IMG/VR virus record: IMGVR_UViG_3300025528_000001
DNA: 53,120 nt
Source of the DNA: a virus
Reading direction: 5' to 3' (one strand)
Shown here: one piece after another, positions 9,001 to 12,000 of the stretch
Numbering within the stretch: position 1 is the first letter of the stretch
How the letters are laid out: the number at the start of each line of letters is the position of its first letter
Program-made: the position numbers

Positions 9001-12000
9001 TGCGGTCGAGTTGCCGCCGGGCTACGAATTGCAAGTGCGACCACGCAGCGGAATCACCTTGCGCACAAAGTTACGAGTACAGCTAGGCACGGTCGATTCA
9101 AACTATCGCGGAGAAATCGGTGTGATTGTCGATAATGTTGCCGAGGATCCGTTCGGAAATGTTGTGCCATATCTCTCGCATATTGACGGGAGCGATTATC
9201 GGACGGACGGCGAAATCTATCCGAATGAAACGTACATCATCCGCAAAGGCGACAAAATTGCGCAAGGCGTCATCGCCCCGGTCGCCAAGGCAACGTTTAA
9301 TGAAACGGACGAATTGAGCGACACAACACGCGGCACAGGTGGATTCGGCTCGACTGGGGTGGTTCCATCGGCTACTTAACGCAAATCATTCTCATGACAG
9401 CGATTATTACACCGCCAACATACATTGAATTGCCCGCGCCAGCACCGCCATTTATCGTCGGCGAGCCGTTAGGCATTAGAGCGCCGGCGTGGCAGGAATT
9501 CGAACTTACCGCCTATACGTCCGGCTACGAATCAACACAGAAAAATCCGGGCGAAGTCGGCTACGGCATTACGGCGAGTGGCGAGCAGGCGCAAGAAGGC
9601 GTGACGGTCGCATGTCCGCCAAGCATGGCGTTTGGCACAGTCATTGAAATAGATGGCTTGGGCGAGCGAACATGCCAAGATAGAGGCGGTGCTATTACGG
9701 AAGGGCATATTGACTTGTATATGGGCGATTTAAAGGACGCAATTAAATTCGGAAGGCAAAAGCGAAACGTACGAATAATGAAGGAGGAATCGGAATGATG
9801 TACGTACTTATAGACGATGAAAACGGCGTATCGCGTGAGTATCATCAAGTTGAGCGGAAAGCAAAAGCCGGGGACTACATCGTGTTTACACACGACCACC
9901 TTGATATAACTGCGAACAGACCATACGAAGTTGAGTACGCTAGTAGCAAAGAGGTGAGATTCACCGACGACGCCCACGAGAAACACGTTTGGGATAGCCC
10001 TAGCGATGATTACAACGTATTTATGCAGACCAATTTCGTCCACATCGACGGCGAGCGTTACCGCATGGTCGACCGCAAAGCAGAAGTTGGCGAGAAAGTT
10101 ATTATCGTTAATGCCGAGGACATGTTCGGAAAGTACGAAAATGGCTCGGTAATAGTCACGGAAGATGTGGACGAATACGGAATATATAACGATAGTGTGA
10201 AAAAAGCGGATTTGAATAACGAAGGTCTTATAGCGCATAGAGAGTATCGCGTACTTGAGCGGGTTGAACGAGTCGAGCCCGTGCTTTCAACATCGGACTT
10301 AATCGCCAACCTAGCGAAACGGGTCGTCGAACTCGAGCGGCGACTAAGCGACATAAACGCCGATGTAAACGAAGTTAACGAGAGAATCGACCGACTTGCG
10401 TATACGTGCGAACAGTCGACCATTAGTATAGCGCGCGATGTGGAGCGAATTGACGCGGACGTGGAACGCTTGAAGCAACCGTCTACTGTCACGATTGACG
10501 CGTCTGTTTTAGCGAAACTAATTTCAAAGGCGGTGGAAAGCGAATGAGTATTATCAAAATCGCACTTACCGGAAAAATGCGGTCAGGCAAGGACACAGTC
10601 GCCTTACACTTGGCGTTCGAGCATGGCTTCGAGTATCCCATCGCGTTTGGAGACAAATTAAAGCGGACTTTCCACGAATTATTTCCGTGGGTGTCCGCCC
10701 AAAGCAAGCCACGCGAAGGTTATCAGCGCTTTGGGCAACTGATTCGCGAAGAATTCGACGAAAACGTTTGGGTCAAGCACCTTGCGAGCACAGTTGAATT
10801 TCTTGAAGATAGTCGGAAAACACGCGGAATCGTGATAGCTGACCTGCGCCAACCGAACGAATACGAATGGTGCCGCGCCAATGGCTTTATTATCGTTCGG
10901 GTAACGGCGCCGGACGAACTGCGCATAGCACGGGCAAAGGCGGCAGGTGACGTGTTTGCAGAAGAGGACTTGGCGCATGACACCGAGTCACATGTCGATG
11001 AGTACGAGGTAGATTACGAGATTCATAACGATGGGACGCTTGCGGATTTAGATACGAAAGTTGATGAGATGATGGACGAAATATATCAAAATCGCAACTA
11101 TACAAAATGGCGGGCAATGCGGTCATGATGAACGTAATAGACGCGATAGGCAGGCGTCCATTATCGATCATCGTCAACTAACTCAAACGCATACCAGCGC
11201 GTCCCTTCAAAATCGACCGGTCCGACATATTCAAACGCAAGTGGCGCGCCGTCAATTTCAAGCGCCAATTTGTCGGCAATGCTACGCCCAAGTTTCTGCA
11301 CATAACCGCGCTCATTGATTTGTGCGGGCGTTGCGTTCGGCACTTTCGCCAGCTCTTGGCGTGCCAAGCCAATGCGCTTCAGGTCAACGTCGACGCTAAC
11401 AACGACCTGCTGGAACGGTTGCCACTTCAACTCGCGCATAGCCGCACGGGTGATTCGTAAACGATGGTATTTGTCGATAGTGATGGTCGGCAAAGTTGTT
11501 CCAGCGATTTTAATCGGTTCAAACGGCATAAAAACACCCCCAATCGTAGTATACGCGATTATTGGGGACTTTGCAACACACGGCGCACGTTGAGCGCATA
11601 TTGGTAGATTTCCTCGGTGGTCTCGCTGCGCGAAAACGATTCGAGGTACTCGATGTAGTGGTCGATTGCACAGCGCAAAACGGCGAGTTCTTCGCCAGAT
11701 TCAATATTAATAACGTTTTGGAATAGGTTCACTGTGACGCACTCCTTTACTATTTACGCTGTCTACATTATATGCGATTACAAGCGACATGTCAACGAAA
11801 ATCAAACGGAAGGGTGACGATATGGGAAAAGCAGACCGCAAACGATGGGAAGGAAACGTTAAGTCTATGGAAATTATCGCAAAGCCGCGCGAACAAATAA
11901 CGGAAGCAGACGTCGAGTTTCTTCGGCAGAATTATACATCAGCAGGCGGATTGTTACCGAATGCCTTTAGTGGAGGTGCTTTCTTTACGCCAACACACGT

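What the first reader, a model, noticed from the sequence alone, without database searches (positions are those of the whole stretch)
11161..11795. Antisense two-gene cassette driven by a perfect consensus sigma-A promoter
In an otherwise + strand region, two minus-strand genes are preceded by an exact TTGACA-17 nt-TATAAT promoter (11767-11795). The genes are a 57-aa helical protein and a 122-aa protein with an AbrB/MazE-like N-terminus. A perfect host-type promoter is rare and implies strong constitutive expression by host RNA polymerase, for example in the lysogen. Small gene size, an AbrB-fold partner and the position beside two methyltransferases suggest a toxin-antitoxin-like, exclusion or regulatory module of unknown type.
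Basis: partly seen in the sequence, partly recalled or inferred. Interest (0 to 1): 0.65.

Follow-up and report, generated by a model that had tools for sequence, protein, structure and literature searches.

The report
Antisense AbrB-like regulator beside phage sigma gene
The perfect promoter and two reverse-strand genes are real, but the conserved 122-aa gene looks like an AbrB-type DNA-binding regulator that always sits next to the phage's own sigma-factor gene, not a toxin-antitoxin pair.

Summary
An exact TTGACA-17-TATAAT lies at 11795-11767 (-), the only one in 53 kb (0.01 expected). It precedes a 57-aa ORF (11732-11559) and a 122-aa ORF (11529-11161).

The 122-aa protein ("X") belongs to a small uncharacterised phage family (phrog_18159; about 40 clusters among 1.84 billion proteins). 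Its N-domain model ranks SpoVT, AbrB and MazE first in the PDB, with non-significant E-values, and it carries the invariant DxxxR motif.

In all 39 loci examined, X is antisense to the surrounding operon. These include Paenibacillus phage Halcyone and Bacillus phage 268TH002. In each locus X lies upstream of, and divergent from, a sigma-factor-like gene. It usually converges on the dNMP-kinase gene, sometimes with an inserted gene between.

Nearly every copy has its own near-consensus sigma-A promoter, overlaid by CGT-core repeats phased every 10-12 nt. The window has five, from the methyltransferase start codon to the -10 box.

The 57-aa gene is lineage-specific cargo, one of several unrelated genes found in that slot. 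About two thirds of loci carry X alone.

My reading (inferred): X is an autoregulated repressor unit set head-on in the path to the sigma operon. Toxin-antitoxin is not supported, and function remains untested.

In passing: hairpins with a conserved TGCCTAT loop, and a skipping-rope RNA.

The parts
11767..11795 (-). P1: exact sigma-A consensus promoter, TTGACA-17-TATAAT, driving the 57-aa ORF and probably the 122-aa gene
   Evidence: Both hexamers are kept with a variable spacer in L016 and L037-L041.
11773..11821 (-). Five CG-core repeats, (T)TCGT(T)-like, spaced 11, 11, 11 and 10 nt. They run from the methyltransferase start codon and ribosome-binding site through the -35 box to the -10 box. 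Putative operator array.
   Evidence: Read from the sequence. Across 27 distinct upstream regions, CGT-CGT spacings peak at 10-12 nt (56 observed against about 8.4 expected), 20-24 nt and 33-34 nt.
11559..11732 (-). 57-aa acidic, apparently helical ORF (GTG start). Lineage-specific cargo gene of unknown function.
   Evidence: Only 6 close homologues, plus a diverged 66-aa homologue in L004. In-frame indel and mainly synonymous changes. No family hits.
11548..11576 (-). P2: TTGCAA-17-TATACT, 18 nt upstream of the 122-aa start codon. This is the position where other family members have their only promoter. It overlaps the 3' end of the 57-aa ORF.
   Evidence: Shares TAATCGC[A/G]TATA[A/C]T with P1. 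Relatives carry a 13-nt tandem duplication here.
11161..11529 (-). X: 122-aa protein. N-terminal AbrB/SpoVT-type domain (about residues 12-58, DxxxR = D19...R23) plus a family-specific C-terminal half.
   Evidence: phrog_18159, unknown function.
11135..11163 (-). Hairpin TAATGGACGC-ctgcctatc-GCGTCTATTA. It starts at X's stop codon and ends 7 nt from the dNMP-kinase stop codon. There is no T-run on either strand.
   Evidence: The same loop with different stems sits at the 3' end of X in many relatives. TGCCTAT is strongly enriched in hairpin loops.
15025..15669 (+). Sigma-factor-like gene (Sigma70_r4). Proposed downstream target, and the invariant divergent neighbour of X across the family.
   Evidence: Pfam; a sigma-like ORF lies upstream of and divergent from X in all 39 loci, and directly adjacent in about ten.

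Best explanation
The conserved gene of the cassette, the 122-aa protein X, is a small DNA-binding transcription regulator of the SpoVT/AbrB (swapped-hairpin) superfamily.

It forms a self-contained, reverse-oriented transcription unit: a strong host sigma-A promoter, the gene, then a hairpin or a convergent overlap. This unit sits head-on inside the long lytic operon, between the nucleotide-metabolism genes (dNMP kinase) and the operon that carries the phage's own sigma-factor gene.

I propose three steps.
1. X binds the helically phased (T)TCGT(T) repeats that cover its promoter or promoters, and so represses itself.
2. In the window the array also covers the start of the methyltransferase-sigma operon, and in many relatives it lies close to the start of the sigma gene itself. 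No sigma-A promoter for that operon is detectable nearby. Bound X, together with convergent firing from P1 and P2, would therefore hinder transcription from reaching the sigma gene.
3. This would hold late-gene activation off in the lysogen and early in infection, until rightward transcription or loss of X overcomes it.

The 57-aa gene is lineage-specific cargo placed under a second copy of the same promoter-operator type.

Shown here: the promoters, the genes, the fold assignment, the repeat phasing and the synteny.
Inferred: DNA binding to the repeats, autorepression and gating of the sigma operon.
For: Fold:
- The N-domain AlphaFold model (pLDDT 79) has the beta-beta-alpha-beta-beta topology.
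- Its top PDB matches are almost all SpoVT/AbrB-superfamily members: 5itm; SpoVT 2w1t (probability 0.94, TM 0.51-0.53); AbrB-N 1yfb/2k1n; MazE 2mru; C68 3o27.
- D19 and R23 are invariant in 65 close and 37 distant homologues. This DxxxR motif is the DNA-binding motif of SpoVT/AbrB/MraZ proteins (PMC12957436).
- 7 of 37 members give MraZ Pfam hits over that motif.

Promoter and operator:
- Nearly every homologue has TTGnnn-17-TATAAT 18-38 nt before its start codon (two of 25 lie farther, at 59 and 76 nt), usually followed by a conserved TGCGTTAA.
- CGT spacings peak sharply at 10-12, 20-24 and 33-34 nt. This holds also in the distant Halcyone copy, which has ATCGTG x2 plus ATCGTT at 11-nt spacing.
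- MraZ likewise binds four phased boxes in its own promoter.

Synteny:
- X is antisense to its neighbours in all 39 loci examined, which span down to about 28% identity, and in isolated phages.
- A sigma-like gene is always the divergent upstream neighbour, within 6-5012 nt.
- The genes inserted between X and sigma vary: C5, N6 and N4 methylases, Mom, HNH.

Transcription context:
- No sigma-A-type promoter pointing at the sigma operon, and no + strand terminator, is found around X in the window or in L020, L036 and L032.
- X overlaps its convergent neighbour's 3' end in several loci, so sense and antisense transcription must meet.

Precedent: in the pBS32 plasmid-prophage, sigma SigN is intrinsically toxic and is held down by antisense transcripts, one of them AbrB-repressed (PMC10601692).
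Against: - There is no experimental or transcript evidence for any step.
- The Foldseek E-values for the N-domain are not significant (0.2-9). The full-length model has no PDB match. No Pfam model reaches its threshold. Profiles find no AbrB, MazE or MraZ chain in the PDB by sequence.
- The repeats could be the site of another regulator, or shared ancestry of related promoters. The loci are phylogenetically related, so the perfect co-occurrence with sigma is not made of independent events.
- The sigma operon could have a promoter for a phage sigma that my sigma-A scan cannot see.
- In the window X is 3.3 kb from the sigma gene.
- A search for further arrays near sigma starts gave only weak enrichment, 5 of 19 loci against a 5.7% background, and these lie inside coding sequence.
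Confidence: 0.42

Rival explanations
1. Lysogen-expressed accessory function. X, made from a strong host promoter in the prophage, acts on something other than the phage's own sigma operon. It could be a late-stage superinfection-immunity factor that shuts down the matching operators of incoming relatives. Or it could be an AbrB mimic that retunes host transition-state or sporulation genes in spore-forming hosts.
For: - X lies on the same strand as the integrase in the window, with a host-type promoter.
- Homologues occur in integrated prophages of Neobacillus, Cytobacillus, Robertmurraya and Niallia.
- The fold is that of host AbrB.
Against: - X also occurs in Halcyone, Heath, Scottie and Unity, where no integrase was found.
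- Its position is fixed and core-like rather than variable, and its GC matches its neighbours.
- Its strict pairing with sigma is not explained by a host-directed role.
Confidence: 0.17
2. The unit works mainly at the RNA or transcription level. Convergent firing from P1 and P2, and the resulting antisense RNA, interfere with the incoming lytic transcript. The 3' hairpin of the X transcript (loop UGCCUAU) may also pair loop-to-loop with complementary hairpins in lytic mRNAs, including the sigma mRNA. On this view the protein only tunes its own promoter.
For: - Head-on geometry with 3' overlaps, and very strong promoters.
- The hairpin at X's stop codon and a hairpin inside the sigma ORF carry the same 9-nt loop on the X strand, so the two RNAs have complementary loops: window 11153-11145 and about 15528-15520.
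- The TGCCTAT loop enrichment is strong.
- pBS32 offers a precedent for antisense control of a sigma.
Against: - The protein is under clear purifying selection, with invariant DNA-binding residues.
- The hairpin motif is absent from distant members that keep the synteny (L035, L036, L042, L043). Only about 5 of 32 loci show both hairpins under my criteria.
- A loop sequence fixed across lineages points to a protein reader rather than free RNA-RNA covariation.
Confidence: 0.12
3. X is a protein partner of the sigma factor, either anti-sigma or a co-factor, rather than a DNA-binding repressor.
For: Perfect co-occurrence and adjacency with the sigma-like gene. The family-specific C-terminal half has no known function.
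Against: - Anti-sigma genes are normally co-transcribed with their sigma, not divergent.
- The conserved residues are the DxxxR DNA-binding motif.
- The phased repeats over X's own promoter fit DNA binding.
Confidence: 0.07
4. One reading: a toxin-antitoxin-like or abortive-infection pair formed by the 57-aa and 122-aa proteins.
For: Two small adjacent genes. An AbrB/MazE-type fold in one of them. The two are co-conserved within the window's own clade.
Against: - The 57-aa gene is missing from about two thirds of loci, where X stands alone. Elsewhere the slot holds unrelated genes, including a DNA ligase and a paralogue of X.
- No toxin, PADLOC or NCBIfam hit for either protein.
- The order is small gene first and AbrB-like second, with a 29-nt gap and a separate promoter. 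X is longer than AbrB-type antitoxins and has a folded C-terminal half.
Confidence: 0.04

Closest known systems
AbrB / SpoVT / Abh transition-state regulators of Bacillus (SpoVT/AbrB swapped-hairpin superfamily)
   Same: - An N-terminal domain of about 50 aa with beta-beta-alpha-beta-beta topology and the DxxxR motif.
- This N-domain is followed by a separate C-terminal domain.
- Best structural matches are to these proteins.
- X is likely to bind multiple phased sites rather than one palindrome.
   Different: - No Pfam or PDB sequence match at threshold.
- The C-terminal half is unrelated to the AbrB-C or GAF domains, and the full-length model has no PDB neighbour.
- X is phage-encoded, with a fixed antisense position next to a phage sigma gene.
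MraZ (autoregulated first gene of the dcw cluster)
   Same: - The only Pfam family that members touch: PF02381, best 22.1 bits against a cut-off of 23.
- The DxxxR motif.
- MraZ represses its own promoter by binding a series of phased direct repeats (PMC12957436). The CGT-core arrays here look the same.
- The model has two beta-beta-alpha-beta-beta halves.
   Different: - The second half of X lacks the arginine (DKRGY). The two halves are not significantly similar to each other (hhalign E about 0.05).
- Foldseek did not match the full-length model to any PDB structure, including MraZ.
- The genomic context is different, and there is no evidence for ring oligomers.
Antisense control of the toxic sigma factor SigN on the Bacillus subtilis plasmid-prophage pBS32
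   Same: A mobile-element sigma factor whose expression threshold is set by opposing transcription from strong sigma-A promoters, with an AbrB-type repressor in the circuit (PMC10601692).
   Different: - In pBS32 the antisense promoters lie downstream of sigN and read back through it, and the repressor is the host AbrB.
- Here the opposing promoter lies upstream of the sigma operon and reads away from it, against the incoming transcript, and the AbrB-like protein is phage-encoded.
- No X homologue was found in plasmids apart from one 65-kb Bacillus paralicheniformis record.
MazE/MazF-type toxin-antitoxin modules
   Same: An AbrB-type fold in a small protein that probably autoregulates its own promoter.
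   Different: - No conserved partner and no toxin domain.
- The gene order is reversed, and X has its own promoter.
Phage morons (promoter-gene-terminator units embedded in the opposite orientation)
   Same: An autonomous unit with its own sigma-A promoter and 3' hairpin, opposite to the flanking operon. The 57-aa gene and the other upstream cargo genes behave like morons.
   Different: X itself is a fixed, core-like gene across a whole phage lineage. Its GC matches its neighbours, and it is present in apparently non-temperate members too.

Membership tests
SpoVT/AbrB (swapped-hairpin) DNA-binding superfamily | N-terminal domain of about 50 aa with beta-beta-alpha-beta-beta topology that matches solved members | tested here: met
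   The model has E16-18, E24-26, H28-33, E42-47 and E52-57. The top PDB hits are 5itm, SpoVT 2w1t (probability 0.93-0.94, TM 0.51-0.53), AbrB-N, C68 and MazE. The E-values themselves are not significant (0.2-9), so this rests on ranking and TM-score.
SpoVT/AbrB (swapped-hairpin) DNA-binding superfamily | Conserved DxxxR DNA-binding motif | tested here: met
   D19 and R23 are invariant in A1 (65 sequences) and A2 (37 distant sequences), and read DxxGR in many distant members. The motif definition comes from PMC12957436.
SpoVT/AbrB (swapped-hairpin) DNA-binding superfamily | Significant sequence-profile match to a curated family model or a solved member | tested here: not met
   No PF04014 hit. 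PF02381 reaches at best 22.1 bits against a cut-off of 23, over about 25 residues only. Profile searches of PDB sequences find no AbrB, MazE or MraZ chain.
SpoVT/AbrB (swapped-hairpin) DNA-binding superfamily | Intertwined dimer forming the barrel; binds double-stranded DNA | not testable with these tools
   Only monomer prediction was available. DNA binding needs EMSA or footprinting.
MraZ | Two tandem repeats in one chain, each with DxxxR | tested here: not met
   The model has two beta-beta-alpha-beta-beta halves. The second half reads D-K-R-G-Y, with no arginine at the motif position. N-half against C-half hhalign gives E about 0.05, probability about 1%. The full-length model has no match in the PDB.
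MraZ | Autoregulation through phased direct repeats in its own promoter | tested here: inconclusive
   Phased CGT-core repeats cover the promoters. Binding by X is not shown.
Type II toxin-antitoxin (MazEF-like) | Conserved two-gene operon of antitoxin plus toxin | tested here: not met
   X stands alone in about 21 of 32 distinct loci. The upstream slot holds unrelated genes in others.
Type II toxin-antitoxin (MazEF-like) | Recognisable toxin domain in the partner | tested here: not met
   No Pfam, NCBIfam or PADLOC hit for the 57-aa protein, and only a non-significant PHROG match (phrog_29990, E 0.12).
Moron | Own promoter and terminator, opposite orientation, patchy distribution, atypical composition | tested here: inconclusive
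   Promoter, hairpin and orientation are met. Patchy distribution is met for the 57-aa gene but not for X, which is present in every locus. GC is 0.48-0.52, like its neighbours.
pBS32-type antisense control of a sigma gene | Antisense promoter downstream of the sigma gene, transcribing back through it | tested here: not met
   P1 and P2 lie upstream of the sigma-like gene and point away from it. A possible Px-like element antisense at the sigma ORF start (15037-15074) is unverified.

The most novel reading that the evidence does not exclude
The cassette is the core of an undescribed timing and safety switch for phage-encoded sigma factors. A phage-borne AbrB-like repressor has a very strong, self-repressed promoter that fires head-on into the only transcript able to deliver the sigma gene. 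The terminal hairpin of its mRNA (loop UGCCUAU) also belongs to a genome-wide set of conserved-loop hairpins, one of them inside the sigma coding sequence. A still unknown factor, or loop-loop RNA pairing, reads these hairpins and couples X expression to sigma mRNA fate.
Probability: 0.12. Interest if true: 0.75.

Novelty: new variant of a known kind. Interest (0 to 1): 0.5.

Why it matters
Many Bacillus, Paenibacillus and related siphoviruses carry their own small sigma factor to switch on late genes. Among them are phages considered for use against American foulbrood. How the sigma factor is kept off until the right time is unknown, and such sigmas can be toxic, as SigN of pBS32 is.

This work identifies a conserved but unannotated gene (phrog_18159, 'hypothetical protein' in every record). 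Its fold, promoter architecture and invariant position make it the obvious candidate regulator of that step. The work also gives precise sites to test: P1, P2, the five phased repeats, and D19/R23.

It also removes a tempting but unsupported toxin-antitoxin or defence annotation. Finally, it flags the interval between X and the sigma gene as a hot spot where methyltransferases and other cargo accumulate.

Tried and rejected
- DNA search (megablast) and protein search (tblastn) with the window's own sequence against 50,697 phage genomes found nothing. Only more distant family members as queries reached isolated phages.
- The full-length model against the PDB gave no meaningful match: best E 0.03, TM about 0.3 (TCL1/MTCP1). 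Against BFVD, only uncharacterised phage proteins came up.
- PDB sequence searches with the single protein and three profiles gave no relevant hit. A weak similarity to S1-domain strands (E 0.1) was judged a beta-hairpin coincidence.
- The internal-repeat test (N half against C half) was not significant.
- PADLOC and NCBIfam gave nothing.
- Rfam gave nothing in 10900-12000, even at E of 1 or below.
- The strict TCG chain test for repeats was too narrow; only P1 and Halcyone were significant. It was replaced by CGT spacing analysis.
- A genome-wide search for further operator arrays found many phased CGT chains on the minus strand. Most lie in coding sequence and may reflect ACG/codon periodicity, so they were not used as evidence. 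Enrichment near sigma starts was weak.
- No additional copies of TAATCGCRTATAMT exist in the window beyond P1 and P2.
- The search for related loci with the diverse alignments failed for lack of conserved stretches.
- The plasmid search tested whether pBS32 carries an X homologue. It does not.
- The methyltransferase-controller (C-protein-like) idea was rejected. Methyltransferase type and number vary, and Halcyone has none beside X.
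Full report
**1. The observation**

The minus strand carries TTGACA (11795-11790), a 17-nt spacer and TATAAT (11772-11767). It is the only exact TTGACA-N16-18-TATAAT in the 53,120-bp window on either strand. Dinucleotide shuffles give a mean of 0.01.

Two minus-strand ORFs follow, inside a long run of plus-strand genes:
- 57 aa: GTG at 11732, stop at 11559, ribosome-binding site AAAGGAG.
- 122 aa: ATG at 11529, stop at 11161, ribosome-binding site GGGGGTG.

It lies 18 nt before the 122-aa start codon. 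It shares the 14-mer TAATCGC[A/G]TATA[A/C]T with the perfect promoter, and these are the only two exact copies in the window.

The window is a temperate siphovirus genome. The gene order runs from replication and nucleotide-metabolism genes (RNR, dUTPase, 3D domain, dNMP kinase) to the cassette. It continues with an N6 methyltransferase, an N4/N6 methyltransferase, a sigma-like gene (Sigma70_r4, 15025-15669) and the terminase and structural genes. An integrase lies at 40368-41408 on the minus strand.

**2. The 122-aa protein (X) is a real, conserved, unannotated phage gene**

It has no Pfam, NCBIfam, PADLOC or PDB sequence hit. It matches only phrog_18159, of unknown function, at E 7.8e-8.

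The 5.8-billion-protein search returns 67 homologues of 112-130 aa, plus two fragments of 92 and 73 aa. All are 'hypothetical'. They come from metagenomes and from prophages of Neobacillus, Cytobacillus and Robertmurraya. Thirteen columns are invariant.

An exhaustive profile search of 1.84 billion cluster representatives finds only 40 representatives, nearly all 110-136 aa. The family is small and phage-restricted.

**3. Fold**

The full-length AlphaFold model (pLDDT 84) has two beta-beta-alpha-beta-beta halves. It has no PDB neighbour and matches only uncharacterised phage proteins in BFVD.

I modelled the N-terminal 63 residues alone (pLDDT 79). Foldseek then ranks almost only SpoVT/AbrB-superfamily structures at the top:
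- Sulfolobus AbrB-like 5itm
- SpoVT 2w1t (probability 0.94, TM 0.51-0.53, 22-23% identity)
- AbrB-N 1yfb, 2ro5, 2k1n
- pSSVx C68
- MazE 2mru and 1ub4
- Sso7c4

The E-values (0.2-9) are not significant for so small a domain.

D19 and R23 are invariant through the most distant members, where the motif often reads DxxGR. DxxxR is the DNA-binding motif of SpoVT/AbrB/MraZ proteins (PMC12957436).

Seven of 37 distant members give sub-threshold MraZ (PF02381) hits over exactly this motif, the best at 22.1 bits against a cut-off of 23.

The C-terminal half shows no significant similarity to the N-terminal half.

My conclusion is an AbrB-type N-terminal DNA-binding domain plus a family-specific C-terminal domain. 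Superfamily membership is likely by fold and motif but not established by sequence statistics.

**4. Context is the most informative feature**

I examined 39 loci: the window, 34 from metagenomes, viral contigs and genomes, two isolated phages, and two very distant members. X is on the strand opposite to its neighbours in every one. It usually converges on the dNMP-kinase gene, sometimes with an HNH or methylase gene between.

A profile built from eight sigma-like neighbours finds a sigma-like ORF in every locus. It is always upstream of X and divergent from it, 6 to 5012 nt away. In about ten loci the two are directly adjacent.

What lies between X and sigma varies: C5, N6 and N4 methylases (up to four in L037), a Mom-like gene, DUF4942, HNH. 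The methyltransferases are therefore insertions into an ancestral X-sigma divergent pair, not partners of X.

Isolated phages with the gene in the same place include:
- Paenibacillus phages Halcyone (gp81, between dNMP kinase gp80 and sigma gp82), Unity, Heath, Scottie, C7Cdelta, Ley, Ash and Tripp
- Bacillus phages 268TH002 (gp82), 268TH007, phi18-2 and KLEB27-1
- Sporosarcina phage Lietuvens

No integrase was identified in Halcyone, Heath, Scottie or Unity (PMC6070908). The gene is therefore not merely a lysogenic-conversion moron.

**5. Promoter and operator architecture**

In nearly every one of 25 distinct homologues, a TTGnnn-17-TATAAT promoter lies 18-38 nt before the start codon. Two lie farther, at 59 and 76 nt. 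It is usually followed by TGCGTTAA.

The divergent gene's ribosome-binding site and start codon often abut the -35 box. No sigma-A-type promoter pointing toward sigma, and no plus-strand intrinsic terminator, is found around X in the window or in L020, L036 and L032. In several loci X overlaps its convergent neighbour's 3' end.

It follows, by inference, that the sigma operon is probably reached by transcription that crosses X in antisense. Otherwise it uses a non-sigma-A promoter that I cannot detect.

The promoters are covered by CGT-core repeats. Over 27 distinct upstream regions, CGT-CGT distances compare with shuffles as follows:

| Spacing (nt) | Observed | Expected |
|---|---|---|
| 10-12 | 56 | about 8.4 |
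| 20-24 | 54 | about 12 |
| 33-34 | 25 | about 4 |

The distant Halcyone copy shows ATCGTG-ATCGTG-ATCGTT at 11-nt spacing across its -10 box.

In the window, five CG cores lie at 11819, 11808, 11797, 11786 and 11776, spaced 11, 11, 11 and 10 nt. They run from the methyltransferase start codon (ATG at 11822) through the -35 box to the -10 box of P1.

Phased direct repeats over its own promoter are how MraZ represses itself. The sequences are related, so these counts are not independent. Binding by X is inferred.

**6. The 57-aa gene**

It has six close homologues (88-96% identity) and a diverged 66-aa homologue in L004. All lie upstream of X in the window's own clade, which also keeps the perfect P1 with a variable spacer (L016, L037-L041).

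An in-frame 15-nt indel, 7 synonymous against 5 non-synonymous codon changes, and a gene-like GC pattern by codon position argue that it is translated.

About 21 of 32 distinct loci have X alone. Other lineages carry unrelated genes in the same slot, several with their own promoter of the same type:
- a 65-aa ORF in L003
- an 80-aa ORF in L043
- a 277-aa ATP-dependent DNA ligase in L011
- a 127-aa paralogue of X plus the 66-aa gene in L004

The 57-aa gene is therefore lineage-specific cargo. It has no family hits, and its function is unknown.

**7. How it most likely works**

X is an AbrB-type repressor that binds the phased repeats and represses its own promoter or promoters. Two things would keep transcription from reaching the sigma gene until the lytic programme overrides them:
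- the unit's head-on position in the path to the sigma operon;
- the array covering the first gene of that operon in the window (in many relatives it lies close to the sigma start itself).

I propose either a roadblock, or promoter occlusion plus convergent interference. The pBS32 plasmid-prophage provides a precedent for needing such control. Its sigma SigN is intrinsically toxic and is held below threshold by antisense transcripts, one of them repressed by AbrB (PMC10601692). The geometry there is different, however.

My confidence by step:
- about 0.8 that X is an AbrB-superfamily DNA-binding regulator;
- about 0.55 that it autoregulates through the repeats;
- about 0.35-0.4 that it gates the sigma operon.

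Rivals are listed separately: a lysogen accessory or host-directed role, a mainly RNA-level role, a sigma-binding partner, and toxin-antitoxin.

**8. Toxin-antitoxin or defence**

This is not supported. There is no conserved partner and no toxin or defence domain. The gene order is reversed relative to mazEF, X has its own promoter and a folded C-terminal half, and its position is core-like.

**9. Novelty**

The fold class and autoregulatory logic are known. What is not described, as far as my searches show, is threefold: the family itself, its novel C-terminal half, and its invariant antisense pairing with phage sigma genes. Every record calls it hypothetical. I rate it a new variant of a known kind, of moderate interest.

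**10. Side finding**

The hairpin at X's stop codon is TAATGGACGC-ctgcctatc-GCGTCTATTA, at 11163-11135. It belongs to a set of hairpins with a conserved TGCCTAT loop and unrelated stems.

In 352 kb of non-redundant related sequence, 24 of 66 TGCCTAT occurrences lie in the loop of a hairpin with a stem of at least 6 bp. The figure for the 420 permutations of the same letters is 2%.

Window copies lie at about 900, 947, 11153, 15528, 48605 and 50550, all on the minus strand. Those at 900 and 15528 are built into coding sequence that reads T-D-R-Q-R with the rare AGG codon, in the polymerase N-terminus and in region 4 of the sigma-like protein.

The motif is absent from distant family members. 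It is therefore not essential to X, and what reads it is unknown.

Noticed in passing
window minus strand, loop positions about 900, 947, 11153, 15528, 48605, 50550; many loci, e.g. L003 6391 and 4238: A family of hairpins with a conserved 9-nt loop, (C/T)TGCCTAT(C/T), and unrelated stems of 5-11 bp. Nearly all are on the strand opposite to the lytic genes. 24 of 66 TGCCTAT occurrences sit in loops of hairpins with stems of at least 6 bp, against 2% for sequence permutations. One copy sits at X's stop codon in many relatives, and another inside the sigma-like ORF. What reads them is unknown: an RNA-binding protein, a single-stranded DNA signal, or loop-loop pairing.
   Followed up: partly
window 886-912 and 15508-15536 (+): Two unrelated proteins, the DNA polymerase N-terminus and region 4 of the sigma-like protein, both encode T-D-R-Q-R with identical codons, ACG GAT AGG CAG CGT. 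AGG is a rare codon. These codons form the hairpin loop and inner stem, which implies nucleotide-level selection inside coding sequence.
   Followed up: partly
window 19015-19045 (+); L009, L011, L013, L014, L020, L023, L032, L033 main strand: A second hairpin class with loop (A)ATGCCTAA followed by a T-run. It lies on the main strand near the small and large terminase genes. It looks like a terminator that carries the same TGCCTA core in the other orientation.
   Followed up: no
window 15776-15845 (+): A skipping-rope RNA (Rfam RF02924, 49.6 bits against a gathering score of 36.7, E 7e-9), immediately downstream of the sigma-like gene. It is an orphan structured RNA of unknown function.
   Followed up: no
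window 49267-49745 (-), promoter-like site 49826-49797: A second reverse-oriented two-gene cassette in an AT-rich gap of the early region. Its two small ORFs (66 and 74 aa) look like XRE-type helix-turn-helix proteins by eye; no domain search was run. A TTTACC-18-TATAAT site precedes them. Divergent and convergent promoter-like sites lie at 49778-49806 (+) and 50612-50585 (-).
   Followed up: no
window 34471-35973 (-): A 500-aa minus-strand ORF with a weak Wzy_C (O-antigen ligase/polymerase) hit, in a segment of only 32% GC. It is a likely lysogenic-conversion moron acquired from elsewhere.
   Followed up: no
between X and the sigma gene: window 11822-15024; L037 328-4911; L001, L002, L003, L005, L006: The X-sigma interval and the X-dNMP kinase junction are hot spots for DNA-modification genes. 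Between X and sigma there are 0 to 4 methyltransferases of different classes (N6, N4, C5; in L006 an intein-containing C5 methylase sits at the kinase junction), as well as Mom-like, DUF4942 and HNH genes.
   Followed up: partly
L004 5334-5717 and 5744-5944; L011 5090-5923: The slot upstream of X carries different cargo in different lineages. L004 has a 127-aa paralogue of X plus the 66-aa homologue of the window's 57-aa gene. L011 has a 277-aa ATP-dependent DNA ligase in the antisense orientation.
   Followed up: partly
L014 8314-8580 (+), L013 9821-10090 (+); probably L006 12093-12287: A further antisense small gene (about 64 aa, MRCSVLYSKKGD...) lies between nucleotide-metabolism genes. Its promoter carries the same TATAATTGCGTTAA and phased CGTT repeats as the X promoter, which hints at a small regulon of antisense genes.
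   Followed up: no
window 15037-15074 (-): An element resembling the X promoter-operator of the main clade, TTCGTATAAT-N4-GCGTT, with CGT cores spaced 11, 11 and 12 nt. It lies antisense within the first 50 nt of the sigma-like ORF. Enrichment of such arrays near sigma starts in other loci is weak, 5 of 19 against 5.7%.
   Followed up: partly
window 11548-11561 versus L016, L037, L040, L041: Relatives carry a 13-nt tandem duplication, TATACTAATCGTA, in P2, which gives two -10-like boxes. The window has one copy.
   Followed up: no
L023 5965-5993: The hairpin at the 3' end of X has the usual stem (GGAGTGA/TCACTCC), but its loop is reverse-complemented (aataggcag). It looks as if the whole hairpin had been inverted.
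   Followed up: no
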